This document shows, in pieces, positions 840-50,102 of a DNA stretch of 64,000 bases; the stretch's first letter is position 1; each line of letters starts with the position of its first letter. Position numbers and translations under genes: made by a program. The notes under the pieces are model-generated. The model worked only from the letters and a program-made list of their open reading frames with translations. It was not told where the DNA came from and did no database searches. The stretch is from Escherichia coli (GTDB taxonomy: Bacteria > Pseudomonadota > Gammaproteobacteria > Enterobacterales > Enterobacteriaceae): NCBI GenBank assembly GCA_902500055.1, contig GCA_902500055.1_4131.1; one strand, 5' to 3'.

Positions 840-846
840 ATACTAT

Positions 847-911
847 GCCAGTACTCAAGTACTGGCTTTTATTTTTGATTAAATATAGTATAATGAATAA
901 AGGAGGGAAAT
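847..911 (+). promoter_or_regulatory. Intergenic cassette: terminator hairpin, conserved TATAAT box and SD
   Basis: Hairpin gccagtactcaagtactggc (847-866) plus a T-run, then TAAATATAGTATAATGAATAAAGGAGG. TATAAT lies at 889-894 and the ATG at 912. Confidence 0.75.
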
Positions 912-2105: not shown

Positions 2106-2114
2106 GAGAAAATC

Positions 2115-3224: not shown

Positions 3225-3230
3225 CATAAT

Positions 3231-3295
3231 GCCAGTACTCAAGTACTGGCATTTCTTTTTGGGGTAAATATAGTATAATGAATAAAGGAGGAATT
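3231..3295 (+). promoter_or_regulatory. Intergenic cassette: terminator hairpin, conserved TATAAT box and SD
   Basis: Hairpin gccagtactcaagtactggc (3231-3250), TATAAT at 3274-3279, AAAGGAGG, ATG at 3296. Confidence 0.75.
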
Positions 3296-4465
3296 ATGTT
3301 ACCTTTTGTGAGATTGTTTGATTACGGGAATATTGCACCTGATAAACCAAATATTAAAAAAATACTTGCTAACAACTATAATGTTGCTGTTTTAACAAAC
3401 AGTGGTGATTTATATGTGCGTGGTGATAATGCATATGGTATTTTGGGTTTAGGTCACAAAAATACTGTTACTACATGGACTTTTAGTACTTCTGGTGTTG
3501 AAGATTTTTGGATGGGAGCCACGTCGATAGTTGTTAAGAAAAGCAATAATGAAATATGGTACAGTGGAAGTTCAACAACTGTTGGTATGAAAGGGTCAGG
3601 AGTATCAATATGGACATCTGCTATGCCTATATTCAATACATTAACATTACCAATATTAGATATAGCCGTTAGTTATCAGACTACAAGTGTGTTACTATCA
3701 GACCAAACAATATGGAGTACTGGAGTAGGGTCGGATGGTCAGTTGGGTGATGGGACAACAATTAACCATGTTTCTGGTAGATTCGTCAAAAGTACTGTTC
3801 CTACCGCAGCAAATCAATTACCTGTTAAATTGTTTGCAAGTAATTTAATGCACGGTTATGTTACAAACCAAGGATGGTTATTTTATACAGGAAGAGTCAA
3901 TGCAGTTACAAGTTCAGGAAGTAAGTTATATAATATATATTATGGTGCTCCTACCAGCTTAAGTAATACAATTAATATAAAGTACTATGTGAATAATGGT
4001 ACTTCAATGGCAATGGCAATAGGCACTGATCCCACTGGTAAAACTATCATCGCAAATGGTGGTTCAAGAATATTTGGTGCACAAGCAGATGGGAAAGATG
4101 GTTCTCTCAAAGATTATAGAGCATTTGAGGTACAAACAGCATCACTAATGCCACCTGGTGATGTAGTAAGCATTGCTAACAATACTTCATATTATAACCA
4201 AGTTATTGCTACAACAGATGGTATATATTGTTGCGGCTACAATCAATCTACACAAGCTGGTATGTTAGGTATTGGTACATCTACTAATGCATTAGTATAT
4301 ACCAAAGCAATCGTACCTGATGGGTTTGATTATAGTAAGTCACAGATGGCAGGTAGTTATAACCGAACTTATATAACTGATGGTAATTTTGTATATAGCA
4401 CGGGAACAGATGTCACATATGGTGGCATTAGTAGTTTAGAATTTATATTAGATTCGCCAGTTTAA
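3296..4465 (+). CDS. RCC1-like repeat protein with MLPFVRLFDYGN leader (paralog 4)
   Basis: The start was moved to the MLPF ATG because the track ATG lies inside the SD box. Contains GDNAYGILGLGHKN and GSDGQLGDGTT repeats. Confidence 0.85.
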   Translation: MLPFVRLFDYGNIAPDKPNIKKILANNYNVAVLTNSGDLYVRGDNAYGILGLGHKNTVTTWTFSTSGVEDFWMGATSIVVKKSNNEIWYSGSSTTVGMKGSGVSIWTSAMPIFNTLTLPILDIAVSYQTTSVLLSDQTIWSTGVGSDGQLGDGTTINHVSGRFVKSTVPTAANQLPVKLFASNLMHGYVTNQGWLFYTGRVNAVTSSGSKLYNIYYGAPTSLSNTINIKYYVNNGTSMAMAIGTDPTGKTIIANGGSRIFGAQADGKDGSLKDYRAFEVQTASLMPPGDVVSIANNTSYYNQVIATTDGIYCCGYNQSTQAGMLGIGTSTNALVYTKAIVPDGFDYSKSQMAGSYNRTYITDGNFVYSTGTDVTYGGISSLEFILDSPV

Positions 4466-4471
4466 ATATAG

Positions 4472-4536
4472 GCCAGTACTTGATACTGGCTTTTCTTTTT
4501 TGTATTAAATATAGTATAATGAATAAAGGAGGAAAT
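4472..4536 (+). promoter_or_regulatory. Intergenic cassette: terminator hairpin, conserved TATAAT box and SD
   Basis: Hairpin gccagtacttgatactggc (4472-4490), TATAAT at 4515-4520, ATG at 4537. Confidence 0.75.
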
Positions 4537-5727
4537 ATGTTACCTTTTGCAAGAATGATGAATTATGGGAATATTGTGCCTGTACCACTACAAATTAAGA
4601 AAATAATACCAACTGATACTGAGGTTGTTGTACTTTATACCGACGGTCAACTATACGCACGAGGCAGTAATAGTTATGGGAAGTTTGGTAGAGGAAATAA
4701 TAATGCAGTAAGGTCGTGGACATTAATTAGAGAAAATGTCAAAGATTGCTGGATGACACAAGGAACTTTGTTAGTACAAGATAATGACTTAAATTATTTT
4801 TATTGTGGATATGGTAGTCATATTGGTTTAGAAACTAGTACTACATCATTTTTAAGTTATAACCAATATATTGAAAATTTGTACACACAAAGTTCAAGTA
4901 CTTCAATTAAACAGATGTATGCAGGTACTACGTGGTTTACTTTCTTAATGGATAATAATACAATATGGAGTACAGGGTGGAATAGTGCTAGACAATTCGC
5001 AGATGGTACAGGAACTACTTATCAAATATCAGATGGTTCATTTGTTAAAGCGGTAACACCAGATGTAGATATTGCACAAATACAGTCAACAAATTACTGT
5101 GCAATGTTTTTTGATACACAAAATAATTTATATATTGGTGGTAGTACATCTGGCATAAGTACTAGTACCACATGGACACCATTTAATGAATATACTTTGT
5201 ATAAGCCAAGTACCACATATACAAAAACATTACAATATACTGTTTGTTCATTTGGTGCTGTCAGTGCTTTAGTGGAGAATCCAAATACAGGAGCACGTCA
5301 GTTTCTAGTTGGTGGATTAGCTAATAATGGGGCATGGGGTAATAACACTACGAATAGTACAGCACTAGCAGTATTAGGGAATAATAGTACTACATTACCA
5401 TCAGGAACTTATTATTCAATCCATACTGGATATGCATCACAATCTAGTATACTAGTTACGAGTACAGGTGTATATGCAACTGGTTTAAATGCGAGTGGTT
5501 ATGCTGGTACATTAGGTGTTGGTTCTAATGTTACCATTGGTAAATTTACTGCATGTCCATTGCCGTCAGGAATAACATATTCTATGTATGATAAAATTAA
5601 AATATATCGCGGTTCGTATCGTACTTTCCTAACTGCTGATATGAAAAATATATATTCAACCGGAACGCATGATGATGGTGGTCCTCGTACAAATAGATAT
5701 GTACTGGATACTCCAAGACAGTTATAA
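4537..5727 (+). CDS. RCC1-like repeat protein with MLPFARMMNYGN leader (paralog 5)
   Basis: Contains GSNSYGKFGRGNNN and GLNASGYAGTLGVGSN repeats. The start was set at the MLPF ATG. Confidence 0.85.
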   Translation: MLPFARMMNYGNIVPVPLQIKKIIPTDTEVVVLYTDGQLYARGSNSYGKFGRGNNNAVRSWTLIRENVKDCWMTQGTLLVQDNDLNYFYCGYGSHIGLETSTTSFLSYNQYIENLYTQSSSTSIKQMYAGTTWFTFLMDNNTIWSTGWNSARQFADGTGTTYQISDGSFVKAVTPDVDIAQIQSTNYCAMFFDTQNNLYIGGSTSGISTSTTWTPFNEYTLYKPSTTYTKTLQYTVCSFGAVSALVENPNTGARQFLVGGLANNGAWGNNTTNSTALAVLGNNSTTLPSGTYYSIHTGYASQSSILVTSTGVYATGLNASGYAGTLGVGSNVTIGKFTACPLPSGITYSMYDKIKIYRGSYRTFLTADMKNIYSTGTHDDGGPRTNRYVLDTPRQL

Positions 5728-5733
5728 TATAAT

Positions 5734-5799
5734 GCCAGTACAGAGTACTGGCTTTTCTTTTTTGTATTAAATATATTATAATGAATAAAGGAGGGAATT
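5734..5799 (+). promoter_or_regulatory. Intergenic cassette: terminator hairpin, conserved TATAAT box and SD
   Basis: Hairpin gccagtacagagtactggc (5734-5752), TATAAT at 5777-5782, ATG at 5800. Confidence 0.75.
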
Positions 5800-6537
5800 A
5801 TGTTACCTTTTGGAAGAATGGTTAAGTACGGGAATAAAATTGAATATAAGCCACATGGTGAACAATTAATCACGACAATAGGAACAACACAATTTACAGT
5901 TCCTGCTGGCGTTACCGAAATATCAGTATGTGTTATTTCGCCGGGTGGTCAACGTGGTGCTGGTGGCGGCTTATCGTGGCGTAATAATATTCCGGTTACT
6001 AGTGGTGAGTACTTAAGTGTTTCTCTTACACATCCCAACACTACTACACCAGTTGAAAACGGTTTATATCGTGGAACTGAAAAACTATGTGTTAGCTTCA
6101 CTGGTGAATATAGGGTTGGTGGACTAGGTGGGAAAGCTGCTAACGCTATTAATGATGGTGGTGGTAATGGGGGCAACGCTGGTGTAAGTGGTGGTGCAGT
6201 CATTGGTGGTGGTGCTGGTGGCTACACTGGTAAAGGTGGTAACGGAGATGCAATCACTGGTGAAAATGGTGCTGGCGGCGGCGGTGGTGGTGGTGCATTC
6301 TATAATACCTCGTTCATTGGTACGGGTGGTGGTACTGGTATCATTGTTCAAGGTGCTAATGGCATTGGCGGTAGATACGATGGTTCATATAATGGTGGTG
6401 CTGGTAGTGGTGGTGCTGGTAAGATGTATGGTGGTGGTGGTAGTATATGGGATAATTTTTCTTATACGGCTGCTGGTGGTGGTGCTGTGCGAATAATATG
6501 GGGACGTGGGAGATATTATCCTAACAATTCAGTCTAA
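5800..6537 (+). CDS. Glycine-rich domain protein with the same MLPFGRMVKYGN leader (array member 6, not RCC1)
   Basis: Begins FTVPAGVTEISVCVISPGG, continues with long GGxGG tracts and ends GGGAVRIIWG. This is the layout of glycine-rich-domain proteins. Confidence 0.8.
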   Translation: MLPFGRMVKYGNKIEYKPHGEQLITTIGTTQFTVPAGVTEISVCVISPGGQRGAGGGLSWRNNIPVTSGEYLSVSLTHPNTTTPVENGLYRGTEKLCVSFTGEYRVGGLGGKAANAINDGGGNGGNAGVSGGAVIGGGAGGYTGKGGNGDAITGENGAGGGGGGGAFYNTSFIGTGGGTGIIVQGANGIGGRYDGSYNGGAGSGGAGKMYGGGGSIWDNFSYTAAGGGAVRIIWGRGRYYPNNSV

Positions 6538-6544
6538 AATATAG

Positions 6545-6608
6545 GCCAGTACAGAGTACTGGCTTTTCTTTTTGTATTAAATATAGTATAATGAATAAAG
6601 GAGGAAAT
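6545..6608 (+). promoter_or_regulatory. Intergenic cassette: terminator hairpin, conserved TATAAT box and SD
   Basis: Hairpin gccagtacagagtactggc (6545-6563), TATAAT at 6587-6592, ATG at 6609. Confidence 0.75.
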
Positions 6609-7718
6609 ATGTTACCTTTTGGGAGAATGTTAAAGTACGGGAATATAGCACCTGAAGATCCAAAGATAAAGAAAGTACTGTGCGGTCTTGATAATTTGTA
6701 CGTCCTCTATGGCGATGGCTCACTTTATGGTTGTGGGGTTAATACTTATTTTCAGTTAAACGTTGAAAATACAGCAACAAGAAATACTTGGATATTAATT
6801 TCAGAAGGTGTTACTGATGCATGGGCTGGGGCGTACAATATTCTTTATCTCAAGGGTGAAGAATTCATAATGCATGGAGTTACCACACAATTAGGCACAG
6901 GAAATACTACGATTCCGTTGGGTGGTTTGAATGTTACTTCTTCATTTCCACATATATCTAATATTAAAATGATATCAATTGGTGTAGATACAATGCACTA
7001 CGTTGATGCTAGTGGTTCGATTGTTTATGGTAGAGGCATGAATGGTAACTATTCACTCGGTGGTGGGTATTCCACGGCTCAGAGTACTTTTGTTTCAGTT
7101 ATTAATACCGGAGCTAATACAGTCCTTGATATATTGGGTACACAGAATAACACATTAATATTAACATCAAATGGTGAACTTCTCGGTTGTGGGAGTAGTG
7201 GGTATGGTTCACTTGGCGTAAGTCCAGGACAGTATACTACACTAGTAAGCAGGTTAACCAGTGTTAAACTGTTTGGTGGTAACAGTACTGGTACTCTTGC
7301 TTATTCAGCCAGCAATATATACAACGCAGGTTGGCAGTATATTGGTCAACTTGGTAACGGTATTACAACGAACACACAAGTATATCCATTTGCATTTAAC
7401 TCCACTACTATTGATAGTAAGATACATAAAATATCAAAATCAAGTGCGACTTCATATGTTAATATGTACGCAACAACCGAAGGAAAGATATACAGTACTG
7501 GTGAATTTGGTAGAAATGGTTCTGGTGGTGGTTTGAGTAGATTCACCAATACACTAACTTTAGATAATTACAACCCAGAAAAATCAGCATTATACACATG
7601 TGCACATTTTAGTATAGTATTTGATGGTAATAATCAAATTTATGCTTGTGGTTCTTTTTTGTATGTGCCAGGTCCTATTACCACGAACTCATGGTCTGCA
7701 ATTACAATGCCGAAATAA
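6609..7718 (+). CDS. RCC1-like repeat protein with MLPFGRMLKYGN leader (paralog 7)
   Basis: Contains GVNTYFQLN, GMNGNYSLGGG and GSSGYGSLG repeats. The start was set at the MLPF ATG. Confidence 0.85.
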   Translation: MLPFGRMLKYGNIAPEDPKIKKVLCGLDNLYVLYGDGSLYGCGVNTYFQLNVENTATRNTWILISEGVTDAWAGAYNILYLKGEEFIMHGVTTQLGTGNTTIPLGGLNVTSSFPHISNIKMISIGVDTMHYVDASGSIVYGRGMNGNYSLGGGYSTAQSTFVSVINTGANTVLDILGTQNNTLILTSNGELLGCGSSGYGSLGVSPGQYTTLVSRLTSVKLFGGNSTGTLAYSASNIYNAGWQYIGQLGNGITTNTQVYPFAFNSTTIDSKIHKISKSSATSYVNMYATTEGKIYSTGEFGRNGSGGGLSRFTNTLTLDNYNPEKSALYTCAHFSIVFDGNNQIYACGSFLYVPGPITTNSWSAITMPK

Positions 7719-7732
7719 TACTATAAAACTAT

Positions 7733-7796
7733 GCCAGTACTTTGTACTGGCTTTCTTATTTGTATTAAATATAGTATAATGAATAAAGGAGGAATT
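7733..7796 (+). promoter_or_regulatory. Intergenic cassette: terminator hairpin, conserved TATAAT box and SD
   Basis: Hairpin gccagtactttgtactggc (7733-7751), TATAAT at 7775-7780, ATG at 7797. Confidence 0.75.
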
Positions 7797-8966
7797 ATGT
7801 TACCTTTTGGAAGAATGTTAAAGTACGGAAATATTAAACCAACTCTTCCCGAAATAAAGAAATTGGATGGTAGTCAATTACATGTCGGATTACTTTATAG
7901 TACAGGGAATATGTATATGCGTGGTTCTGGATCGAACTACAAATTAGGAACAGGGAATGATAGTGATGTATTAGGTGGTTGGGTACATGTACCCTATGAA
8001 GTTGATGATTTTTGGGCGTGTGTATCCGGTACATTAATAAAGACGGTTGATAATAAGTTATATTGTGCCGGACTATACATGGGTGGATATTTTGGGGCTA
8101 GTGGTTCATATGTTAACTGGACTGAAGTAACTTCATTATTTGTAGGTATTGACGTGTCGCAAATAAAGAATATAGAATTTACGTCAGCAGGTACGTCAGG
8201 TAGTACACTAATATTGATGTTAGATGGTCGTTTATATGGGTTCGGTATGAACAGTAGATCTGAGTTAGGTGTTAATAACAAAGTTGTATCTCCCATTCTT
8301 ATAGATACTGGGGTAAGTGAAATAGGAGCACATAAGTTAGGCGGTTCATCGTTCCATTATATAAAAGGCGGTAAGTACTACAGATGTGGAACATCGGTTG
8401 GTAGTAATATTGGAAGTTCTTCTTTAACTACTTTTACGGTATTGAGTATTCCTGATAACGTTATATCTATGCAAATTTTATATGACAACGTACAGTTATT
8501 ATGTTTAGGAAGTTCTGGATATAGTATCTATATGGCTGGTTCTAATGATTATGGTGGAAGAGGTGTTGGTGGTTCTACTGTTTACACTACATTCAGGAAA
8601 ATAGATCTTACAGGATTTGGTGTTGTTCCCAGTGAAATACTATTTGAAAATGCCGGAAATGGTTATGTTAATATATCAACTGATAGTACTGGAGTATATA
8701 CATGTGGTGGTGGAGCGGGTGTTAACGGTTTAGGTAGACCAACTAATGTAATACCAAGTTCACAGTTGGGGGTAGTTCAGTTCAGTACTGGAGTAGAACA
8801 ATCAAATATAAGTCGTGTGTATTCACAGAGTTCGAGTTCTGTTATATATTGTATAGTCAATAATGAATTGTACTGGGCTGGGAGTAATTCATATTTTACT
8901 GATCAAACCACAAATACTGGTACACAATTTTCATTTATTAAGATGAAGAATATGCCTTCTGCTTAG
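7797..8966 (+). CDS. RCC1-like repeat protein with MLPFGRMLKYGN leader (paralog 8)
   Basis: Contains GSGSNYKLGTGN, GMNSRSELGVNN and GSNDYGGRGVGG repeats. Confidence 0.85.
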   Translation: MLPFGRMLKYGNIKPTLPEIKKLDGSQLHVGLLYSTGNMYMRGSGSNYKLGTGNDSDVLGGWVHVPYEVDDFWACVSGTLIKTVDNKLYCAGLYMGGYFGASGSYVNWTEVTSLFVGIDVSQIKNIEFTSAGTSGSTLILMLDGRLYGFGMNSRSELGVNNKVVSPILIDTGVSEIGAHKLGGSSFHYIKGGKYYRCGTSVGSNIGSSSLTTFTVLSIPDNVISMQILYDNVQLLCLGSSGYSIYMAGSNDYGGRGVGGSTVYTTFRKIDLTGFGVVPSEILFENAGNGYVNISTDSTGVYTCGGGAGVNGLGRPTNVIPSSQLGVVQFSTGVEQSNISRVYSQSSSSVIYCIVNNELYWAGSNSYFTDQTTNTGTQFSFIKMKNMPSA

Positions 8967-8973
8967 ATTTTAT

Positions 8974-9037
8974 GCCAGTACTTAACACTGGCTTTTCTTT
9001 TTGATTAAATATAGTATAATGAATAAAGGAGGATTTT
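8974..9037 (+). promoter_or_regulatory. Intergenic cassette: terminator hairpin, conserved TATAAT box and SD
   Basis: Imperfect hairpin gccagtacttaacactggc (8974-8992), TATAAT at 9015-9020, ATG at 9038. Confidence 0.7.
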
Positions 9038-10243
9038 ATGTTACCTTTTCCAAGGATGTTAAAATACGCAAATAAAATGAAAGTTCCTGAAGTGAAAGAA
9101 ATCTTTATGTACAATGGTTATAGTGCGTCAGTTATTCCAGCAACAGCACTCTTACTATTATATAAAAATGGAGACTTAATGGGTATAGGTGGAACTAGTT
9201 CACAAAACTATGGATTCGGAAATGGTGTACCTAATGCGAAAGTAAAAGAGTGGGCTTTAATATACCAAAATGTAAAACGTTTTAGAACAGCCCAAGGTTC
9301 TTTTAATTTAATCCAAACCGAAGATAATAAATTTTATTACAGTGGCGTAGGTAGAGCTATTGGTACAGGATTAAGTACTGTCAGTACTTATACTGATTGT
9401 ACTTCATATTTTACATCAGTATTCAATGCAACACAATTGTCGCAAATTAAGGACATTCAAATTGTAGGGGAGGGTATTTTTGTTTTACTTCAAAATGGTA
9501 CGCTATATGGAATGGGGGCCAATACACAGGGATATTTTGGTAATAACACAACCACAAGATTATCAACATTTACTTCAATTAATACGAATGTGGATAGTGT
9601 AAAAACAGGTTCAAGTGCAGTGATTGTGCAGAAAATTGATAAAACACTTTGGGTCACTGGTCAAAACACATGGGGTTCACTTGGTATAAGTAATGGTGAA
9701 ACTAACATTAGAGTATGGACACAAATGGGTGCATTAGCCAACAATACTGTTATACATTATGAACTTGGTGGGAGTGCATCATGGGTTGTATCTAAACACA
9801 ACACGAATAATACATATACAGTTCGTGCAAGTGGGATTCAATCGGAAGGTAACTTGGGTAATAGTTCAGCCGCTTCATCAGGGACAGTATTATCTACAAT
9901 CTCCACTCTACCAATATCAGATAATATGGAAATGAAATCAAATTCATTAACATATGGTGGGCTTACGGTTAAAACTAACAATTCACTTTATATGTGTGGT
10001 ATAAACACATATGGTAGGCTCGGTCGCGGTAATACCACATCAAGTACTACATTTGTAGTTCCAGTTGATGCACCTAAAGTTGGCAGCATCGAGTTATTCT
10101 GTCCAAGTGAATGTACAAATGTGTATATGGATAATCAAGGGGATGTGTATTTGAGTGGCTATATCCCACAAGCAGCAGGGACAACAGTTTCTGATTACTA
10201 CACTAAATTCCAATTATATCAAATACCCAGTCGTGGTATATAA
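9038..10243 (+). CDS. RCC1-like repeat protein with MLPFPRMLKYAN leader (paralog 9)
   Basis: Contains GANTQGYFGNN, GQNTWGSLGISNG and GINTYGRLGRGNTT repeats. Confidence 0.85.
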   Translation: MLPFPRMLKYANKMKVPEVKEIFMYNGYSASVIPATALLLLYKNGDLMGIGGTSSQNYGFGNGVPNAKVKEWALIYQNVKRFRTAQGSFNLIQTEDNKFYYSGVGRAIGTGLSTVSTYTDCTSYFTSVFNATQLSQIKDIQIVGEGIFVLLQNGTLYGMGANTQGYFGNNTTTRLSTFTSINTNVDSVKTGSSAVIVQKIDKTLWVTGQNTWGSLGISNGETNIRVWTQMGALANNTVIHYELGGSASWVVSKHNTNNTYTVRASGIQSEGNLGNSSAASSGTVLSTISTLPISDNMEMKSNSLTYGGLTVKTNNSLYMCGINTYGRLGRGNTTSSTTFVVPVDAPKVGSIELFCPSECTNVYMDNQGDVYLSGYIPQAAGTTVSDYYTKFQLYQIPSRGI

Positions 10244-10250
10244 AAAAAAT

Positions 10251-10315
10251 GCCAGTATTTTGTACTGGCATTTTTTTGTCCTAAATATAATAACGATTTA
10301 CATTTGGAGGATACA
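10251..10315 (+). promoter_or_regulatory. Divergent copy of the intergenic cassette
   Basis: Hairpin gccagtattttgtactggc (10251-10269) flanked by an A-run and a T-run. TATAAT at 10286-10291, GGAGGA SD, ATG at 10316. Confidence 0.6.
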
Positions 10316-11468
10316 ATGCTACCCTTTGGAAGAATTATCACATCATCAAAAAAGAACATACAACCTTCTGTAACAAAAATAGCTTCATCTGATACAACAG
10401 TTTTTGCCCTTATGTCAGATGGTACGTTGTACAGTAGAGGCTCTCAAGAGTTTGGGCAAATGGGTATAGGTAATATTATAACACAAACCAAATGGGTTTT
10501 GTGCAATACAAACGTAGAAGATATATGGGTGCGGGTATGAGTCAACCTTAATAAAAAAGAAAGATAATACGATGTGGTACGCTGGAAATGGTGCATCATT
10601 CGGATTATCAACTGATAAGTCAACAACATGGGCTTCTGCAAAGATAGTGTTTGATAGAATAACCGCCCTAGGCAAAACAATAAAACAAATTGCAGTTAGT
10701 GCAGGTGCATTAAGCGTATTATGCACAGACAACACTATATGGAATACGGGCTATGGTAGTTATGGTCAACTGGGAAATGGTAGAAGTACCGATTCACTTT
10801 CATCATTTGTACAAGGAACAGTACCTACTGGAGTAACACCATCCAAAATACTGGCAAATTTTCTTATGCAAGGATTTATTGGAACCGATGGGAGATTGTA
10901 TTATACTGGTGCAATATCAGGCGTAGGTACAACCGACATGACGTTATATTCAAAGTACACGTTATGTTCTCAAATAACTAATACCTATACGGTGAAAGAT
11001 TATACAACAAACTCAAGTTACTTCGCTTTTGCTATAGCAAGTAATAATAGTAGTAATAAATTATTTGCATATCATGGTGGTGGACAATACTTTGGTCAGT
11101 TAGCAAATGGTTCTACATCACAAACATATATTTCGTTAAGACAAACAACACAAGCACCAGGTGATATAATAAGAAGCAGTGTGGGTTATTCATATTTTTC
11201 TAATCATATTATAACTTCATTAGGTGTTTACGCAACTGGTTATAACACAGGCGATAACGCAGGTCAATTAGGTATAGGTACACAAACAGATGTCTCAGCC
11301 TATACCAAATGTGTACTACCAATAGAGATGAATATGAATAACGTATATGTTACAGCAACTTTATACAGAACTTACTTAACCGATGGTATACAAATTTACA
11401 GTACTGGACAATATGTTACAGACGGTGGAGTTGCCAGTACTGTATTTGTCAAAGATTCACCATTTTAG
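10316..11468 (+). pseudogene. RCC1-like paralog 10, reading frame broken by a +1 shift between 10518 and 10540
   Basis: The MLPFGRIITS... frame stops at 10538-10540. The +1 frame is open from 10518 and reads GCGYESTLIKKKDNTMWYAGNG, which continues the paralog alignment to 11468. Confidence 0.6.
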
Positions 11469-14660: not shown

Positions 14661-15434
14661 TTAAATTTTCTCAAGGAACATATTCTCTGCCATTGATTCC
14701 CAATCGTATGGGAATTTATTATACAAACCAGCGATCAGTACTGGCATACGCAGTGATGGACTACGCAAACGTTCTTCGTTGTTCAGCATCCAATTCAGGA
14801 TTGCTTTACAACCATTTTTGTTAACACCATTGTTTTCAAGGATGTTAGTTTTGTTCATGATGTTCTCAATGTGAATCATCACTTCTTCGTTGGTGAACAG
14901 TTGCAGGTCAACAAAGATACTACGAGTGATCAGTGCATCGATGTGTGGTGCTAAGCTGCTTTTACCTTTAGCAATCTGTGACAGGTTTTTGTTAGTCAGA
15001 AAGATTACTTTACCACGGAATTCAAACTGCTTAGGGATACCCTGCTGTTCCAGGTACTTAGCAGAAGTCGCGTAAGAAACTACACGCTTCTCTGACGTAT
15101 CCAACACAGCTTTAAGCAAATCAATATTAGTCTCGTCAGAGAAGATATCAACGTCATCAAGTAACAGTACTGATGCGGCATGACGTGAACGATACAGTGC
15201 TTCGTACAGACCCAAAGTAGTTACTTTACCACTGATTTTCTTGTAGTCGATTTCAAAGTTATCATCAGCTTTCTGTAACCGTTGGTCAACGTTATAAGTT
15301 TTACCAACACCACCTTTACCTGATACGATCAGAGAGTTGATAGAGTTAGCTTGTGTATCAAGAAGGCATTCCAGTGCAGCCATCATGCTATTGAAGTTTT
15401 TTTCGATTTGGATTGCTTTCTCTTGACGGGTCAT
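14661..15434 (-). CDS. P-loop NTPase (AAA-like ATPase)
   Basis: Walker A VSGKGGVGKT and Walker B VLLLDDVD. The SD AAGGAGA precedes the ATG. Confidence 0.8.
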   Translation of the reverse strand: MTRQEKAIQIEKNFNSMMAALECLLDTQANSINSLIVSGKGGVGKTYNVDQRLQKADDNFEIDYKKISGKVTTLGLYEALYRSRHAASVLLLDDVDIFSDETNIDLLKAVLDTSEKRVVSYATSAKYLEQQGIPKQFEFRGKVIFLTNKNLSQIAKGKSSLAPHIDALITRSIFVDLQLFTNEEVMIHIENIMNKTNILENNGVNKNGCKAILNWMLNNEERLRSPSLRMPVLIAGLYNKFPYDWESMAENMFLEKI

Positions 15435-19682: not shown

Positions 19683-19711
19683 AGAATACACCAGAACATC
19701 AGTTCTGTCAA
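19683..19711 (-). promoter_or_regulatory. Possible sigma-70 promoter TTGACA-N17-TATTCT
   Basis: The reverse complement reads TTGACAgaactgatgttctggtgTATTCT. The -10 is weak. Confidence 0.4.
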
Positions 19712-20349
19712 TAAAAAACTGGATCTTCTTCAGTAACTGGTATTTCTCTACGTACATCACACGAAAGAGGATCAGTAATGAATACATTGCCATCTTTATC
19801 CATCATCACATTACTTGAATGAATGTCTGGTACAAAACGCCCGTGAAACTCTTTCATGATGTTAGCAGCGACCGTTGCAATAGCAATCTCTTCAGAATTT
19901 CCACGCATATCATTCACTGAAGTAGCGTACTGACCAGCATGTGCATAAGAATATAAATCTCCAATTTTAGTACTAACAAAGTCATCATAATTATTTTTTT
20001 GTTTAATTATAGGATAGTACTTGTCCATCTCATACCATCCAAAGTTTCCTTGTTCGTTGGCACTGTAGATCACTGGAAGAAACTTGGTTCCTGCGTTTTC
20101 AATGCAGTACTTTGCATAAGCACGAAAACCATCCCAGCGTGAAGTGGTTACTTTAAATGCACGTCCAGGATAGTTTTTATGTTCAACTACTACAGAGTAC
20201 ATCCCCATTCCAAGCAAAGTAAGTCCAGCAGCTTTAACTTGTGGAAAGATTACGCGTTCAGCATAAGGAATATCAAACTCCATCGCACAACGAGTTTTTG
20301 ATGGACGCAAAATGTCAATTAAAGTTTTGAATATGTCTTGCTTAGTCAT
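19708..20349 (-). CDS. Protein-kinase-like protein (atypical, short)
   Basis: GMGMYSVVV...GRAFKV (glycine loop and Lys) and FVPDIHSSNVMMDKDGNVFITDP (catalytic D-x-H-x-x-N and a DFG-like motif). The start was set at MTKQD after a GAGGA SD. Confidence 0.6.
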   Translation of the reverse strand: MTKQDIFKTLIDILRPSKTRCAMEFDIPYAERVIFPQVKAAGLTLLGMGMYSVVVEHKNYPGRAFKVTTSRWDGFRAYAKYCIENAGTKFLPVIYSANEQGNFGWYEMDKYYPIIKQKNNYDDFVSTKIGDLYSYAHAGQYATSVNDMRGNSEEIAIATVAANIMKEFHGRFVPDIHSSNVMMDKDGNVFITDPLSCDVRREIPVTEEDPVFY

Positions 20350-20378
20350 TACTTTATCCTCTGTAGTTAATACCAACA

Positions 20379-20409
20379 TCATAACAAAAAAGGCTGACCG
20401 AAGTCAACC
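20379..20409 (-). terminator. UUCG-tetraloop hairpin element GGTTGAC-TTCG-GTCAGCC plus U-run
   Basis: Hairpin at 20392-20409 followed (minus sense) by TTTTTTG. It carries an embedded TTGACT, but the -10 is only TTATGA. Confidence 0.65.
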
Positions 20410-32844: not shown

Positions 32845-33633
32845 TTAAATGTTAGTAGTATAGTACTTGATTTCGTTTTGAATTGCAAGTTCTATTTGTT
32901 TATTGAAAAGAATTCCAAACTCTTTGATTGATTCACAATCGAATTCAATAGAAAAAGTATACTCTGGTACACGTACATTGTCAATACCCAAATACTCTTT
33001 TATGTAAATTTTAATGAGTTCACATAGTGCAGTACTAAGACATTGAATTTCAAAATGTTTTGCACCTTTGTCAAAATACTTGAATGCATCAATATCACCT
33101 ACAATAAAACTATTCTTTAATGTAGTGAATAGGTTCTCAGGAAACACGGTAATAGGTGACATTGATTTAAGAATGTATGTATCTTTGGCATTCTTAATGT
33201 ACTCAATGAAGCAGTAGTTAACGTCAGGCTCGATTGAACGATCCGCGTTATGATACCAGTGTTTAAACTCACTGTATTCAGCAAACTTATGCTGGCGTAA
33301 TGCGTTACAATCTTCACACAGTGCAGTCATGTTCTCTTTATCATTACCGCCCTGAAGACAGTCCAGTACATTATGGTCTAACGTCATGCGTACAAGGCGT
33401 TTCCCTTTAAGTACATAAGGTCTGAATTTATAACGATCTTTAGTACTGTGCTTGTGTAAAGTGAATACTACATTTGATTCACCGCAACAATCACATTTAA
33501 AGCCATCACGTGACATTACATGAATGAGTTTTCGAGTATTTGGACCAAACTCTGATTTGGTAATGTTACCTACAATTTCTGATGGTTGGTAATATTTTGA
33601 ATTCCGTCGAATCAGTTCATCTATAGTGCTCAT
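32845..33633 (-). CDS. HNH endonuclease
   Basis: CDCCG...TLDHNVLDCLQGGNDKENMTALCEDCNALRQHK (Cys pairs plus an H-N-H core). Confidence 0.75.
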   Translation of the reverse strand: MSTIDELIRRNSKYYQPSEIVGNITKSEFGPNTRKLIHVMSRDGFKCDCCGESNVVFTLHKHSTKDRYKFRPYVLKGKRLVRMTLDHNVLDCLQGGNDKENMTALCEDCNALRQHKFAEYSEFKHWYHNADRSIEPDVNYCFIEYIKNAKDTYILKSMSPITVFPENLFTTLKNSFIVGDIDAFKYFDKGAKHFEIQCLSTALCELIKIYIKEYLGIDNVRVPEYTFSIEFDCESIKEFGILFNKQIELAIQNEIKYYTTNI

Positions 33634-34660: not shown

Positions 34661-34695
34661 TATATCACAAACTTTTACTTCATCCCATAAAAAAA

Positions 34696-34713: not shown

Positions 34714-34721
34714 TTTTTTCT

Positions 34722-35687
34722 TTAGAAATCTTCGTATTCGTACCCTTTTGCAAGTACTAACTTCTTAAGCTTTTGCATAGCTTCACTGTACTTTCGGTGT
34801 ATTGATGAACGGGATTTAACATATTTTCCATTATCATCAACAAAACCATTATCAGCAATCTCACGAAGCGTTTCAGGTTCATATTCACCTAGACCATGAA
34901 CACGCTGGATAATCTCACGTTCTTTAGTACTCAATTCGTTAGTCAGTTCATTGATAGCATAACGTAAAGGTGCACGGATACTATCAACATTGAGGTTAAA
35001 ATCAGAAGCAGGTGAATGAATAATGTCACCTAATGTACCATCTGTAACACCGTCTAATGGTGCATCCAGCGAAGTGTATTCGCTTTGAAATAACAAACAA
35101 TTATTAACATGCTGAATCTCAATCCCAGTACCCTCTGAGATTATTTCAGGAGTTGGGCGAACACCATGTTTACGCATATATTCCTGACAGAATCTTTTTA
35201 CTTTGATCTTATGAACACTCATATAACGTGGGAAGTGTACCATATAGTTAGCGTCAGAACTTTCGTTATAGACTGTCATGTAAATACTAGAAGAAGCATA
35301 GGTAATGAACTTAACATTCTTATTAAGATCAAAGGTTTTTAGTGCTCTCATGAACCCCTCAACACCATATGAAATCTTATCTTCAAATGGGATATAACAA
35401 GTACATTTACTTGCTACATCAATAATCAGTCCATAATTGTAACGAACTAACAGTTCAGTGTTTTTCTTTACATTGATACCAGCTTGAATATCACGAATTA
35501 GATCTTCATTGGAAACATTTGGTGGTCGCTTAAGTGTAATATTATATTTGAAACTGCTTTGTACTTTACCTTCATTTTCATCTTTATCTTCAACGAAATC
35601 TAAGGCTTCTAGTGTGTTGACTTCTTCATTAGCAAAACATTCATCCAGAACTTCTTCGGCAATTGTATTTAAATCAAGCTTTTTCAC
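34722..35687 (-). CDS. Sigma-70 family RNA polymerase sigma factor
   Basis: Region 2-like LLVRYNYGLIIDVASKC...EGFMRALKTFDLNKNVKFITYASSSIYMTV. Region 4-like LSTKEREIIQRVHGLG...TLREIA...SRSSIHRKYSEAMQKLKK. GTG start after a GGAGAT SD. Confidence 0.85.
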   Translation of the reverse strand: MKKLDLNTIAEEVLDECFANEEVNTLEALDFVEDKDENEGKVQSSFKYNITLKRPPNVSNEDLIRDIQAGINVKKNTELLVRYNYGLIIDVASKCTCYIPFEDKISYGVEGFMRALKTFDLNKNVKFITYASSSIYMTVYNESSDANYMVHFPRYMSVHKIKVKRFCQEYMRKHGVRPTPEIISEGTGIEIQHVNNCLLFQSEYTSLDAPLDGVTDGTLGDIIHSPASDFNLNVDSIRAPLRYAINELTNELSTKEREIIQRVHGLGEYEPETLREIADNGFVDDNGKYVKSRSSIHRKYSEAMQKLKKLVLAKGYEYEDF

Positions 35688-35708
35688 TTACATCTCCTAA
35701 TGACGAAA

Positions 35709-36206
35709 TCAAAATCGATATACATTAATATTATCATCTGTGAAGCAATCATGGTTATGCACATCCATGAAAGTACTAAACACTTTATCATATAAAGTTG
35801 TATGTTCTTCATGAATAGCAGCATCTACCATGTATTCTCCACCACTTCCCATAAAGAAAGTGTAGTCTTCATGTAGATATTCAAGTTTTTTAATAAACTT
35901 TCCTTTAGTTAAAATCATATGAATAACATAATCTTTAGAAAGAAGCACACAATGGCAACTTAACTTTCTGTCAGGTATAACTGGTACTTTATTAATTAAC
36001 CAATCCAGTACTTTATCAATTTCACTTACTGCCCCACTAGCACTGAATAAACGGTCATGTACATATAAAGTTTTTTGATTAACAACTCCATATTGATATT
36101 TTGGTCTTAGTGGAAAAAAACCAAATAAGTTTCGTGGTATAGTTGACGTAACTCTAGAATCGGTAATCAATAAATTTAATCGTTTATCAATATAAACAGT
36201 TGTCAT
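35709..36206 (-). CDS. HslV / proteasome beta-subunit-like N-terminal-threonine peptidase
   Basis: Starts MTTVYI (Thr directly after Met) and has ITDSRVT, FSASGAVSE and FFMGSGGEYMVDAAIHE. These are collinear with HslV TTIVSV, IAGDGQAT, FAGGTADA and IAIGSGGPYAQAAARALLE. Confidence 0.6.
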   Translation of the reverse strand: MTTVYIDKRLNLLITDSRVTSTIPRNLFGFFPLRPKYQYGVVNQKTLYVHDRLFSASGAVSEIDKVLDWLINKVPVIPDRKLSCHCVLLSKDYVIHMILTKGKFIKKLEYLHEDYTFFMGSGGEYMVDAAIHEEHTTLYDKVFSTFMDVHNHDCFTDDNINVYRF

Positions 36207-36207
36207 A

Positions 36208-36627
36208 TTAAACCTTATCTAAGAATTTATCGTATATATAAAATTCTTTATCGGTGAATACATTAATTCTAGTATCGAATCTTTGCATCGTGTTCATATA
36301 CAATGAACTTTTTAAATAAAAATACAAAGCAACAAATTCTGATATATGCATATTCTTTTTATTGTTACATAAATTCTTTAGCATTTTGATGCTATCAAAT
36401 TCTTCTTTATCAAATCTGTACTGGTAAAAATTATATCTATTGAACTGGCACTCATAGATACGAAGTGCCATTATATCAATACATGCTTGCGATTTACAGT
36501 ACTTATTCAATACGTCATAATCACCCGTACATAATGCTACAAAGATTTTATGTGCAAGTGTAGCTTTTCCTTCAATCGTATGATAACCAAAGAACTTAAT
36601 GATTAAGTACTGAAGAAATCTAAACAT
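36208..36627 (-). CDS. Hypothetical protein
   Basis: Intact 139-aa ORF in the tiling. Confidence 0.7.
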   Translation of the reverse strand: MFRFLQYLIIKFFGYHTIEGKATLAHKIFVALCTGDYDVLNKYCKSQACIDIMALRIYECQFNRYNFYQYRFDKEEFDSIKMLKNLCNNKKNMHISEFVALYFYLKSSLYMNTMQRFDTRINVFTDKEFYIYDKFLDKV

Positions 36628-36632
36628 TTTAT

Positions 36633-36893
36633 TTAGAATTTCTCCGAAATTACAAGTGTATCATCATAATCATCAGCAATATCATGAAGAACTTTTAAGT
36701 TACTTTCACCAGAAACGCTTTTTACTTCGTTCAAAAGATAGTTTAGATCAACTTTAGTTACTTTTTCTGAATCAAACACACAGAAAGTTAATTCAGCGTT
36801 TGGACAGATCTTCTTCAGATTATCAGCAACCACTTGTTTGAAGTTGAAAGATGGGGAAGCAACTAGGTTAACTGCAACGAGAATAGATTTCAT
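36633..36893 (-). CDS. Hypothetical protein
   Basis: Intact 86-aa ORF in the tiling. Confidence 0.65.
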   Translation of the reverse strand: MKSILVAVNLVASPSFNFKQVVADNLKKICPNAELTFCVFDSEKVTKVDLNYLLNEVKSVSGESNLKVLHDIADDYDDTLVISEKF

Positions 36894-36932
36894 AATGTTT
36901 TCCTTTCTAGCTGATAATTAAATTAGGAGCAC

Positions 36933-36961
36933 ATTGTACTCCATATTATTTGTTATGTCAA
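36933..36961 (-). promoter_or_regulatory. Sigma-70 promoter TTGACA-N17-TACAAT
   Basis: The reverse complement reads TTGACAtaacaaataatatggagTACAAT. Confidence 0.7.
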
Positions 36962-36967
36962 ATACTT

Positions 36968-37219: not shown

Positions 37220-37253
37220 AAGTTCCTTACTCTAATTTGTTTTTAACAAAATA

Positions 37254-46970: not shown

Positions 46971-47672
46971 TTATTTACGATTCCTTGCGGAGTTTTTATT
47001 TCTTGCTCTAAATGTCGGTGTCATTGAATGACAATTCGGACAAAGAATTTTTAAATTCGATAGGTCATTATTTGTTGCATCACCATCAATATGTTCAACT
47101 TCGGTAAGGACTGCACCATCAACTGGATGACGTTCATCCCATCCACAATCTTCACATGCAGTTCCACGTGTTTCATGTAGGTATCTTCTCACATAATTAC
47201 TAATTTTGCAAGTCTTACCAGTACAACCCAGTTTATCACCAGCAAGCCAAGACTTAACATAAGTGTCATATTGGTGCTGTTTATGGCATTTCGAATCACA
47301 ATATTTCTTATCTGTTTTTCCTTTAGGTATAAATGTATTACATGATAAACAGTACTGATCCTTCACCATCTCACCTGTATGTCGGTTATAACCTTTATTA
47401 TTATAACTAGCAGCACAAGATTGATTGCAAAATTTCTTTACTTCAACCCCTTTACAAAAAGGTATTGAGTTATGACACATCAAACACAACGTTGGATTTT
47501 CATTATAATATCTTTCACGAAATTCTTTATTAAGATTCGACAATGTAAATCCATACTTTAATAGTATTGTATTATAAGAAGGTAGTTCTTTACATTCATT
47601 GATATCTTTTTTGGTTATATTTGATTTTTTATTTTTGTATAGATTGTACATAATCTCTTTCATAACATCCAT
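46971..47672 (-). CDS. HNH endonuclease with Cys-rich zinc-finger region
   Basis: CEDCGW...VEHIDGDATNNDLSNLKILCPNCHSMT, with multiple CxxC pairs upstream. Confidence 0.8.
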   Translation of the reverse strand: MDVMKEIMYNLYKNKKSNITKKDINECKELPSYNTILLKYGFTLSNLNKEFRERYYNENPTLCLMCHNSIPFCKGVEVKKFCNQSCAASYNNKGYNRHTGEMVKDQYCLSCNTFIPKGKTDKKYCDSKCHKQHQYDTYVKSWLAGDKLGCTGKTCKISNYVRRYLHETRGTACEDCGWDERHPVDGAVLTEVEHIDGDATNNDLSNLKILCPNCHSMTPTFRARNKNSARNRK

Positions 47673-49397: not shown

Positions 49398-50102
49398 TTA
49401 TAAGCCATGTCTTTTCAAAAATCTAGCAAACACATTTTTGGAAGCACCATAACTTTCATATATACTAACTTTTTTCTCACCATTATTCAAACGTTGTTTG
49501 ATATCTTCTATGTTATCTTCTAAACGTTTTACGTTTGCAAATTTCTTAGATGGTATATTATTTTTGGTTCTATAATTCAGTACTGAACCTGAACTAATAT
49601 TCATTATTTTAGCAATTTCAGTATCTAATAAACCTTGGTTAATATATTCTTTTACCTTTTCATAATCAACAGATGTTTCACCACCCTTTGTATTAGAAGG
49701 AGGCTTGACCATTTTTTGTGAACACTCAACACTACAATATTTTGTATATGATTTCACTTTAGTATGCCTACGGGTAAATTCCATATTACAACAAGCACAT
49801 ACAAATGAATCATATCGTGCTTGCACACCATTCTTATGTGTTTTATAACGATGTTCATCAACATGAAGTATTTGCAAATTTGACAAATCATCATTTGTGA
49901 AATCATTATCAATGTGGTCTGCTTCTTCAGACTCAGTTAAATATCTACCTTCTTGTACTGCTAATAGATATCTGGCATATTGAGTACTGCTTCTATCAGT
50001 TGGAGAATTATAAAGTATTACAGTTCTTCTACCTTCAGGGTTTATCTGTATATACCCATTCTCCCAATCATTACTGTATGGATATTCTAATTTTATTTTC
50101 AT
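49398..50102 (-). CDS. HNH endonuclease with C-terminal helix-turn-helix-like region
   Basis: EADHIDNDFTNDDLSNLQILHVDEHRYKTH. The C-terminal DTEIAKIMNISSGSVLNYR looks like an HTH. Confidence 0.8.
   Translation of the reverse strand: MKIKLEYPYSNDWENGYIQINPEGRRTVILYNSPTDRSSTQYARYLLAVQEGRYLTESEEADHIDNDFTNDDLSNLQILHVDEHRYKTHKNGVQARYDSFVCACCNMEFTRRHTKVKSYTKYCSVECSQKMVKPPSNTKGGETSVDYEKVKEYINQGLLDTEIAKIMNISSGSVLNYRTKNNIPSKKFANVKRLEDNIEDIKQRLNNGEKKVSIYESYGASKNVFARFLKRHGL

What the first reader, a model, noticed from the sequence alone, without database searches (positions are those of the whole stretch)
35709..36206. Stand-alone HslV / proteasome-beta-like peptidase immediately downstream of the phage sigma factor
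The 165-aa product starts Met-Thr-Thr. It is collinear with E. coli HslV at the catalytic landmarks: N-terminal Thr, ITDSRVT versus IAGDGQAT, FSASGAVSE versus FAGGTADA, and FFMGSGGEYMVDAAIHE versus IAIGSGGPYAQAAARALLE. No HslU-like ATPase is visible in the window. The only P-loop protein (14661..15434) is 20 kb away and not obviously AAA+ unfoldase-like.

The phage proteases I know of are ClpP/S49 or herpesvirus-like prohead proteases, so an N-terminal-threonine protease in an early-type block is unusual. It could hijack host HslU or act on specific host or defence proteins.
Basis: partly seen in the sequence, partly recalled or inferred. Interest (0 to 1): 0.5.

Follow-up and report, generated by a model that had tools for sequence, protein, structure and literature searches.

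The report
Phage mini proteasome-like threonine peptidase
The 165-residue gene in this jumbo coliphage really does encode a small proteasome/HslV-like enzyme with an N-terminal threonine, but such phage proteasome homologues are already described and this gene is already labelled HslV in public records, so it is a real, modestly interesting protein whose target is unknown.

Summary
The ORF at 35709..36206 is real. It lies on the minus strand, so it sits 21 nt upstream of the phage sigma-factor gene, not downstream of it. The window is an Asteriusvirus jumbo coliphage (121Q/PBECO4 type) and the gene is 121Q gp166.

All 26 family members start Met-Thr-Thr. They keep an Asp that aligns with HslV Asp17, a near-invariant Lys45, and Gly-Ser-Gly. 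dN/dS is 0.085.

The protein lacks helix H2. That is the hallmark of the phage proteasome homologue PPH described in 2021.

No HslU-like gene is in the window, and I found none in related phages. These phages do carry a ClpA homologue with a ClpP-type docking loop elsewhere in the genome.

The gene sits behind a near-consensus sigma-70 promoter in a block of small genes, and its orthologue is absent from the phAPEC6 virion proteome.

An orthologue is already annotated as HslV in GenBank and in a 2026 paper supplement. Verdict: a catalytically competent, early-expressed phage proteasome-like peptidase, a new member of a known kind, substrate unknown. The idea that it hijacks host HslU has no support.

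The parts
35709..36206 (-). Gene for the 165-aa proteasome-like (PPH-like/HslV-like) N-terminal-threonine hydrolase, orthologue of 121Q gp166, phAPEC6 gp067c and fEgEco12 g518
36201..36203 (-). Codon for Thr2, the predicted nucleophile Thr1 once the initiator Met is removed
   Evidence: M1-T2-T3 invariant in 26/26 family members. Aligned with HslV Thr1. Met removal is inferred from the known maturation of E. coli HslV, not shown.
36159..36161 (-). Codon for Asp16, equivalent to HslV/proteasome Asp17
   Evidence: Invariant in 26/26 members. Aligned to D17 of E. coli HslV by hhalign.
36072..36074 (-). Codon for Lys45, the probable equivalent of catalytic Lys33
   Evidence: Conserved in at least 90% of members. 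Lies directly before strand 46-49 in the model. hhalign places it 2 residues from HslV K33 in a low-confidence stretch, so the equivalence is inferred.
35841..35849 (-). Codons for Gly120-Ser121-Gly122, the GSG motif equivalent to proteasome Ser129
   Evidence: G120 and G122 invariant, S121 in at least 90%. Aligned with the HslV GSG. Reverse complement of 35841-35849 reads GGA AGT GGT.
35739..35750 (-). Codons for Asp153-x-x-Thr156, a conserved C-terminal D-x-x-[ST] motif
   Evidence: D153 invariant and S/T at position 156 in all rows. The resemblance to 20S Asp166/Ser169 is from memory and was not tested structurally.
36212..36216 (-). Ribosome-binding site AAGGT, 6 nt before the ATG
   Evidence: Read directly from the sequence.
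36933..36961 (-). Sigma-70-type promoter TTGACA-17-TACAAT (11/12), lying in the intergenic gap upstream of the four-gene run that ends with the sigma factor
   Evidence: Consensus scan. Function is inferred. Three perfect 12/12 promoters lie in intergenic gaps further upstream on the same strand.
36208..36893 (-). Two small upstream genes (86 aa and 139 aa), probably co-transcribed. They are not conserved across phage genera.
   Evidence: ORFs. phrog_26969 and phrog_37211, function unknown. No cross-genus similarity for the 139-aa gene.
34722..35687 (-). Phage sigma-70-family factor gene (GTG start, AGGAG ribosome-binding site), 21 nt downstream of the peptidase gene
   Evidence: Pfam Sigma70 r2/r3/r4 and phrog_351. 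Gene order kept in fEgEco12, K64-1, Munch and a metagenomic relative.

Best explanation
The gene encodes a catalytically competent, minimal member of the proteasome-like Ntn-hydrolase family. It belongs to the phage-borne branch that has lost helix H2 (PPH-like) and is not a true HslV orthologue.

Proposed mechanism:
1. Host RNA polymerase transcribes the gene early, from a sigma-70-type promoter, together with two small genes and the phage sigma factor.
2. Host methionine aminopeptidase removes Met1 and exposes Thr as the nucleophile. There is no propeptide.
3. The Thr acts together with Asp16, Lys45 and the Gly-Ser-Gly loop to hydrolyse peptide bonds.
4. The enzyme works in the cytoplasm, not in the virion. 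It has no dedicated HslU-type ATPase, so it probably cleaves peptides, unstructured proteins or a specific host or phage protein during takeover.

Shown here: the fold, the conserved active-site residues, purifying selection, the gene order, and the absence of HslU-like genes. Inferred: Met removal, early timing, oligomeric state, ATPase independence. The substrate is unknown.
For: Fold:
- AF2 pLDDT 83.6 from 15 sequences and 94.5 from 26 sequences, with the same topology.
- Foldseek PDB ranks 1-9 are all HslV, E 7e-6 to 7e-5.

Sequence:
- phrog_1040 'peptidase HslV family' is hit by 18 of 26 members, best E 6e-14.
- hhalign to HslV gives E 4e-5; to phage 'HslV family' proteins it gives Prob 82%, E 1.1e-5.

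Active site and selection:
- M1 T2 T3 D16 G58 G120 G122 D153 are invariant; T15 K45 S121 are kept in at least 90%.
- dN/dS is 0.085.

Loss of H2:
- There is a single helix at 60-72, then coil at 73-83, and about 17 HslV residues are unmatched there.
- Fuchs et al. 2021 state that only PPH/RPC lack H2, that PPH is phage-borne, and that homologues other than proteasome beta and HslV have no propeptide (PMC8665760).

Timing and location:
- A near-consensus sigma-70 promoter lies at 36961-36933, with no terminator predicted before the sigma gene.
- The equivalent region of the related phage CBB was proposed to be early (PMC5259590).
- The orthologue phAPEC6 gp067c is not among the 62 virion proteins, and a separate prohead protease exists.

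No HslU:
- tblastn of E. coli HslU against 50,697 phage records lists Erwinia, Pseudomonas, Salmonella and others. Escherichia is not among the ten most frequent organism names, although the collection holds about 33 genomes of this phage group. Not every row was inspected.
- Nothing is found in the window.
Against: - No enzymatic, structural or genetic data exist for any member of this family.
- Pfam Proteasome is not reached: 0 hits for this protein, and a best E of 1.3e-3 among relatives.
- Lys45 is offset by 2 residues from HslV Lys33 in the only alignment available. I could not inspect model coordinates, so the active-site geometry is unverified.
- The residue aligned with the oxyanion Gly (HslV Gly45) is a variable Ser55.
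- Early timing rests on a consensus scan whose total count is not above the shuffle expectation.
- ATPase independence is an argument from absence. Host HslU, host ClpX/ClpA or the phage ClpA homologue could still feed the enzyme.
Confidence: 0.6

Rival explanations
1. HslU hijack. The phage protein assembles into HslV-like rings that dock onto host HslU hexamers. This would form a hybrid ATP-dependent protease with altered specificity, or titrate HslU away from host HslV.
For: HslV chains are the closest solved structures by Foldseek. All known hosts (Escherichia, Klebsiella, Salmonella, Erwinia) are enterobacteria, which possess HslUV (general knowledge). The phage lacks its own HslU.
Against: - Helix H2 is deleted. 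It is one of the two helices on the face of the subunit that contacts the neighbouring ring or cap in proteasome-type complexes (Fuchs et al., plus my own knowledge of HslUV structures).
- A 10-12-residue hairpin extension replaces the region around HslV Lys28.
- TM-scores to HslV are only 0.52-0.63.
- Other proteasome homologues (BPH, Anbu) have no known unfoldase.
Confidence: 0.15
2. Non-proteolytic catalysis. As in archaeal connectase, the Thr1 active site performs a sequence-specific transpeptidation or ligation on one target, or it hydrolyses a non-protein amide.
Against: Connectase lacks both H1 and H2 and carries a two-helix insertion over the active site. This protein keeps H1 and has no helical insertion. 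Sequence identity to connectase is 6-10%.
Confidence: 0.1
3. Partner of the phage's own AAA+ protein. The peptidase is fed by the phage-encoded 762-aa ClpA homologue.
For: Every jumbo-phage lineage that carries the peptidase also carries the ClpA homologue. ClpA is a genuine unfoldase type: E 5.6e-178 to E. coli ClpA over its full length.
Against: - The ClpA homologue keeps an I-G-M tripeptide exactly where E. coli ClpA has the ClpP-docking IGL loop, so it is built for ClpP.
- It also occurs in GAP32, fHe-Yen9-04, Erwinia pEa_SNUABM_50 and PA5oct, which gave no hit to the peptidase.
- The two genes lie more than 100 kb apart.
- Distant peptidase relatives sit in 147-kb phages. I did not check those for ClpA.
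Confidence: 0.05
4. Head-maturation (prohead) protease or other virion component.
For: Phages need a maturation protease, and a threonine protease could in principle serve.
Against: These phages have a separate T4-type prohead protease (phAPEC6 gp227c; Sharanji; fEgEco12 Gp214). phAPEC6 gp067c is absent from the 62-protein virion proteome. The gene lies among small non-structural genes behind sigma-70-type promoters.
Confidence: 0.02
5. Inactive structural relic or decoy that merely binds a host factor.
For: Many proteasome-family subunits are catalytically dead. The residue at the oxyanion-Gly position is variable.
Against: Thr1, Asp16, Lys45, GSG and Asp153 are kept across members that are only 18-30% identical overall, which is the pattern expected of an active enzyme. 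dN/dS is 0.085.
Confidence: 0.05

Closest known systems
[quoted passage not shown]
   Same: Phage-borne. Small. In the HslV/BPH-like group I. No propeptide. Lacks helix H2, which is stated to be unique to PPH/RPC. Function unknown.
   Different: 165 aa against about 140 aa. It carries a long beta-hairpin (residues 18-41) before the catalytic Lys. Similarity to the phage 'peptidase HslV family' proteins I could collect is only hhalign Prob 82%, E 1e-5. Those proteins have their insertion after the Lys instead. Direct clustering with the published PPH representative was not done.
Bacterial HslV (ClpQ), the peptidase of the HslUV protease
   Same: Met-Thr-Thr start with Thr1 as nucleophile. Asp17 and GSG motifs align. 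Similar length. Best Foldseek PDB hits. Existing GenBank/HHpred label for the orthologue (fEgEco12 Gp518, 6KR1, 99.4%).
   Different: No Pfam or PDB sequence-level match. H2 is deleted. The hairpin is extended. There is no adjacent or genomic hslU. Overall identity is 12-19%.
Phage 'peptidase HslV family' proteins (phrog_1040), e.g. SPN3US gp1, pSal-SNUABM-04 ORF1, phiEaH2 gp185, Jedunavirus gp29
   Same: Orphan proteasome-like proteins of 153-169 aa in large phages, all starting MTTI. They also align to HslV with gaps where H2 sits. The pSal-SNUABM-04 authors noted that no HslU accompanies theirs (PMC7823757).
   Different: They are much closer to HslV (hhalign Prob 97.5%, E 6e-12) than this family is. 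They are in a separate PHROG and a different genomic context. Several of their phages do carry an HslU-like gene.
BPH and Anbu (bacterial proteasome homologues without a known unfoldase)
   Different: Both keep all four helices. BPH forms heptameric double rings with a long acidic pore loop, and Anbu has the H5 extension. Both are cellular, not viral.

Membership tests
Proteasome-like Ntn hydrolases (MEROPS T1 fold) | Alpha-beta-beta-alpha Ntn sandwich with the proteasome-beta topology | tested here: met
Proteasome-like Ntn hydrolases (MEROPS T1 fold) | Nucleophilic Thr/Ser at the mature N-terminus | tested here: met
   Met-Thr-Thr in 26/26 members, with no upstream in-frame start. Actual removal of Met1 is not testable with these tools.
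Proteasome-like Ntn hydrolases (MEROPS T1 fold) | Catalytic Asp17 and Lys33 equivalents | tested here: inconclusive
   Asp16 is invariant and aligns with D17. Lys45 is kept in at least 90% of members, but hhalign puts it 2 residues from K33.
Proteasome-like Ntn hydrolases (MEROPS T1 fold) | Gly-Ser-Gly loop (Ser129) and oxyanion Gly47 | tested here: inconclusive
   GSG 120-122 is conserved and aligned. The invariant Gly58 aligns with HslV Gly48, whereas the position aligned with the oxyanion Gly45 is a variable Ser55.
HslV proper (ClpQ) | Sequence-level membership (Pfam PF00227 / HslV models) | tested here: not met
   No Pfam hit even at E<=10. No HslV hit in PDB phmmer or hmmsearch. Only profile-profile methods reach it (published HHpred).
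HslV proper (ClpQ) | Four flanking helices H1-H4 | tested here: not met
   One helix (60-72) followed by coil 73-83 in both models. About 17 HslV residues have no counterpart there.
HslV proper (ClpQ) | Cognate hslU gene (operon partner) | tested here: not met
   No HslU-like sequence in the window. In the tblastn of HslU against the phage collection, Escherichia is not among the ten most frequent organism names, although not every hit row was inspected.
HslV proper (ClpQ) | Dodecamer of two hexameric rings, activated by HslU C-terminal tails | not testable with these tools
   No multimer prediction or docking tool was available.
PPH (Fuchs et al. 2021) | Lacks helix H2 and has no propeptide | tested here: met
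   for H2; for the MTT start. The definition is quoted from PMC8665760.
PPH (Fuchs et al. 2021) | Encoded by tailed phages (or prophage-derived host genes) | tested here: met
   52 phage records, all 310-386-kb Rak2-like jumbo phages. Distant members occur in Stephanstirmvirinae-type phages.
PPH (Fuchs et al. 2021) | Clusters by sequence with the PPH representatives (e.g. WP_042125023.1); about 140 residues | not tested
Proxy: hhalign to seven phage 'HslV family' proteins gives Prob 82%, E 1.1e-5. Length is 165 aa, not about 140.
Connectase | No H1/H2 pair; a two-helix insertion over the active site | tested here: not met
   H1 is present and there is no helical insertion in the model.
Phage prohead protease | Located in the head-morphogenesis module and/or found in proheads or virions | tested here: not met
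   Absent from the phAPEC6 virion proteome, and a separate prohead protease is annotated. The gene lies among small genes next to the sigma factor.

The most novel reading that the evidence does not exclude
The enzyme is an ATPase-independent minimal proteasome-like protease, functionally coupled to the phage sigma factor that it has stayed next to across four or more genera. For example, it could trim the sigma factor's acidic N-terminal region, or destroy host sigma-70 or an anti-sigma or defence protein, so that transcription switches to the phage programme. That would be the first assigned function for any viral proteasome homologue.
Probability: 0.1. Interest if true: 0.7.

Novelty: new member of a known kind. 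Interest (0 to 1): 0.3.

Why it matters
No viral proteasome homologue has an assigned function, although they recur in many large phages. This family is a compact, well-conserved example in cultivable coliphages with easy host genetics (delta-hslU, delta-hslV and delta-clpP strains exist). It would therefore be a convenient system to ask two questions: what a proteasome-like peptidase without helix H2 and without a dedicated unfoldase does, and whether it forms rings at all. As an annotation the result is modest. It corrects 'ATP-dependent protease subunit HslV' to 'phage proteasome-like (PPH-like) Thr peptidase, no HslU partner', and it corrects the gene's orientation relative to the sigma factor.

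Tried and rejected
- Pfam on the protein and on all 26 family members: no usable hit.
- phmmer and hmmsearch against PDB sequences: only chance hits, such as 5jqk.
- hhalign against a single E. coli HslV sequence: only the first 21 residues aligned, Prob 9%. A five-sequence HslV profile was needed.
- BLAST of E. coli HslV against phage records: found only host-contaminant contigs, not real phage genes.
- Two large protein searches (5.8 billion and 1.8 billion sequences): only 23 and 18 relatives, all phage-like, and no bridge to cellular HslV.
- A conserved partner gene: the immediate upstream neighbours are not homologous between genera. A 667-aa AAA_28 protein follows the gene in one distant relative only, and AAA_28 is not the AAA+ domain family of the Clp/HslU-type unfoldases.
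- Sigma-factor linkage: the gene order holds in Rak2-like phages. However, neighbouring genes there are collinear too, and the linkage is absent in distant members. I treat it as weak evidence.
- The afdb50 fold library was unavailable.
- Model coordinates are not exposed, so active-site distances, surface conservation and oligomer modelling could not be done.
- Prohead-protease and chance-ORF readings were rejected.

Full report
**What the window is.** The region 34000-38000 is 98-99% identical to about 20 Asteriusvirus jumbo coliphages (SHEFM2K, SP27, PBECO4, 121Q, phAPEC6; genomes around 350 kb). The finding's ORF equals 121Q gene 166, phAPEC6 gp067c and, at 74.5% identity, fEgEco12 g518.

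**The observation.**
- A 165-codon ORF occupies 35709..36206, but on the minus strand.
- Its ATG is the first start after the stop of the preceding gene (36208..36627). An AAGG ribosome-binding site lies 6 nt upstream.
- The product starts Met-Thr-Thr.
- Because of the strand, the gene lies 21 nt upstream of the sigma-factor gene (34722..35687, GTG start, AGGAG ribosome-binding site). It is not downstream of it.
- The sigma factor is confirmed by Pfam Sigma70 regions 2, 3 and 4 and by phrog_351.
- Comparison with the fEgEco12 orthologue gives dN/dS 0.085, so this is a real gene under selection.

**Is it proteasome/HslV-like?**

Plain sequence methods nearly miss it:
- Pfam gives nothing.
- phmmer and a family profile against PDB sequences give only chance hits.
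- PHROGs places the protein in its own family of unknown function (phrog_24804), with a weak second hit to phrog_1040 'peptidase HslV family' (E 1.7e-5).

The family is small. There are 15-23 clusters among 5.8 billion proteins and 18 representatives among 1.8 billion. All are 157-183 aa when complete. Across 26 members, 18 reach phrog_1040 (best E 6e-14) and two reach Pfam Proteasome below threshold (best E 1.3e-3).

Structure prediction settles the fold:
- The 15-sequence alignment gave pLDDT 83.6. The 26-sequence alignment gave 94.5 (pTM 0.85), with all five models above 93.7 and the same topology.
- Foldseek ranks nine HslV chains first (E 7e-6 to 7e-5). TM-scores are only 0.52-0.63.

**Active site.**
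- Across members that are only 18-30% identical, M1, T2, T3, D16, T20, G58, G120, G122 and D153 are invariant. T15, K45 and S121 are kept in at least 90%.
- D16 aligns with HslV Asp17, and GSG aligns with the HslV GSG.
- Lys45 sits immediately before strand 46-49, as Lys33 does in HslV. However, hhalign offsets it by two residues in a low-confidence stretch, so I rate the equivalence as probable, not shown.
- The invariant Gly58 aligns with HslV Gly48. The position of the oxyanion Gly45 holds a variable Ser55.
- I could not access coordinates to measure distances.
- This conservation pattern is what one expects of an active enzyme, not of a dead scaffold.

**How it differs from HslV.**
- Both models show only one helix (60-72) followed by a Pro-rich coil (73-83) where HslV has helices H1 and H2. 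About 17 HslV residues have no counterpart there.
- A long hairpin (18-41) adds 10-12 residues before the catalytic Lys.
- Fuchs, Alva and Lupas (2021) surveyed proteasome homologues. [quoted passage not shown] They note that propeptides occur only in proteasome beta and HslV (PMC8665760).
- To test this link I collected seven phage 'peptidase HslV family' proteins: pSal-SNUABM-04 ORF1, SPN3US gp1, phiEaH2 gp185, SPAsTU, a Jedunavirus, Gungnir39 and an Elvirus.
- Those seven align to HslV at Prob 97.5%, E 6e-12, with gaps at H2.
- They align to the present family at Prob 82%, E 1.1e-5, without a large gap there.
- The present family is therefore a divergent, H2-less phage branch. It is marginally nearer to those phage proteins than to HslV. 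I could not cluster it directly with the published PPH set.
- BFVD holds at least 16 phage proteins with this fold (Caulobacter CcrBL9 'Proteasome subunit beta', Erwinia RisingSun, Pseudomonas Noxifer and others).

**Partner ATPase.**
- The window has no HslU-like or ClpA-like sequence. Its 257-aa P-loop ORF (14661..15434) gives only a sub-threshold AAA_16 match.
- tblastn of E. coli HslU against 50,697 phage records finds HslU/ClpX-like genes in Erwinia and Salmonella chimalliviruses, PA5oct-like phages and Lak phages. Escherichia is not among the ten most frequent organism names, even though the collection holds about 33 genomes of this group. I did not inspect every row.
- The fEgEco12 annotation table pointed to a 762-aa 'Clp ATP-binding subunit'.
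- That protein has AAA, AAA_lid_9, AAA_2 and ClpB_D2-small domains. It matches E. coli ClpA end to end (E 5.6e-178).
- It is present in all Rak2-like phages, including PBECO4 and SP27.
- It has I-G-M exactly where ClpA has its IGL loop. That the IGL loop docks ClpP is established knowledge.
- So 'stand-alone' is true with respect to HslU. The phage does encode an unfoldase, but one built for ClpP. It also occurs in relatives that gave no hit to the peptidase (GAP32, PA5oct).

**Context and timing.**
- On the minus strand there are perfect 12/12 sigma-70 promoters at 40491, 38645 and 37282. An 11/12 promoter lies at 36961-36933, in the intergenic gap before the run 86 aa, 139 aa, peptidase, sigma factor.
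- No terminator is predicted between the peptidase and the sigma gene. The total count of promoter-like sites is not above the shuffle expectation, so only the near-perfect intergenic ones carry weight.
- For the related phage CBB, such promoters were reported to concentrate in the block of short genes that includes its sigma factor, and that block was proposed to be early (PMC5259590).
- The order peptidase then sigma factor is kept in fEgEco12, K64-1, Munch (33% identity; a terminator is annotated between the two genes there) and a metagenomic relative.
- Neighbouring small genes are collinear too, the immediate upstream gene is not conserved, and distant members in about 147-kb Stephanstirmvirinae-type phages have no sigma factor nearby. 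The linkage is therefore suggestive only.
- phAPEC6 gp067c is not among the 62 virion proteins found by mass spectrometry, and these phages have a separate T4-type prohead protease. That rules out a morphogenetic role.

**Prior knowledge.**
- GenBank already labels the orthologue 'ATP-dependent protease subunit HslV' (fEgEco12) and 'ATP-dependent protease' (Turkey3).
- The supplement of the fEgEco12 paper records an HHpred hit to S. aureus HslV 6KR1 (99.39%, E 3.1e-11).
- An orphan HslV without HslU was noted for pSal-SNUABM-04 (PMC7823757).
- I found no paper that tests the function of any phage proteasome homologue.

**Verdict.** Three points need correcting: the orientation, the 'HslV' label and the claim of rarity. 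The best explanation is an early, cytoplasmic, catalytically competent PPH-like threonine peptidase that has no dedicated HslU. Its substrate and oligomeric state are unknown. Hijacking of host HslU remains possible, but it has no positive support and is mildly disfavoured by the loss of helix H2. I rate it a new member of a known kind, with an interest score of 0.3.

Noticed in passing
outside the window; L016:1578-3866 (fEgEco12 g327); orthologues in PBECO4, SP27, K64-1, GAP32, PA5oct: All Rak2-like jumbo phages encode a full-length ClpA homologue (762 aa, E 5.6e-178 to E. coli ClpA). It has an I-G-M tripeptide at the position of the ClpP-docking IGL loop, which suggests it works with host or phage ClpP.
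   Followed up: partly
window 36..11468 (+): Ten tandem ORFs of 245-415 aa. Nine are mutually similar paralogues by blastp (25-49% identity; 5800..6537 gave no hit). The last one hits a PHROG named 'regulator of chromosome condensation' (RCC1-like). Proteins annotated as DNA condensation proteins are virion-associated in phAPEC6.
   Followed up: partly
window 19708..20382 (-): A 224-aa protein matching the PHROG for the T7 gp0.7-type protein kinase / host-transcription inhibitor (E 2.5e-97). This is another host-takeover gene on the same strand as the sigma factor.
   Followed up: no
window 40491-40464, 38645-38617, 37282-37254 (-): Three perfect 12/12 sigma-70 consensus promoters (TTGACA-16/17-TATAAT) in intergenic gaps of the minus-strand block of small genes, plus 11/12 sites at 36961 and 34164. 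They look like strong early promoters read by host RNA polymerase.
   Followed up: partly
window 36926-36942 (-): A terminator-like hairpin (GGAGTACAATGTGCTCC plus a T-rich tail) whose stem contains the -10 box TACAAT of the 36961 promoter, so a terminator and a promoter may overlap.
   Followed up: no
window 34722..35687 (-): The phage sigma factor starts with GTG. Before region 2 it has an acidic N-terminal segment of about 75 residues (17 Asp/Glu against 10 Lys/Arg), reminiscent of an autoinhibitory region 1.1.
   Followed up: no
window 32845..33633, 46971..47672, 49398..50102 (-): Three HNH homing-endonuclease-like genes scattered through the block. fEgEco12 differs from its relative Ecwhy_1 by HNH genes and the sigma factor, according to its paper.
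   Followed up: no
L003:6557-8560 (metagenomic contig with a distant family member): In one distant relative the peptidase gene is followed after 10 nt by a 667-aa protein with an AAA_28 (NadR-type P-loop) domain, with a PnuC-type NMN transporter nearby. This arrangement is not seen in other members.
   Followed up: no
phage collection hits H61-H74, H77-H79: Several records named as Listeria, Enterococcus, Staphylococcus, Salmonella or Escherichia 'phages' (OR84xxxx series, UNVERIFIED_ORG) carry ordinary bacterial hslV/hslU genes and look like host contigs. Hits to them should not be read as phage genes.
   Followed up: partly
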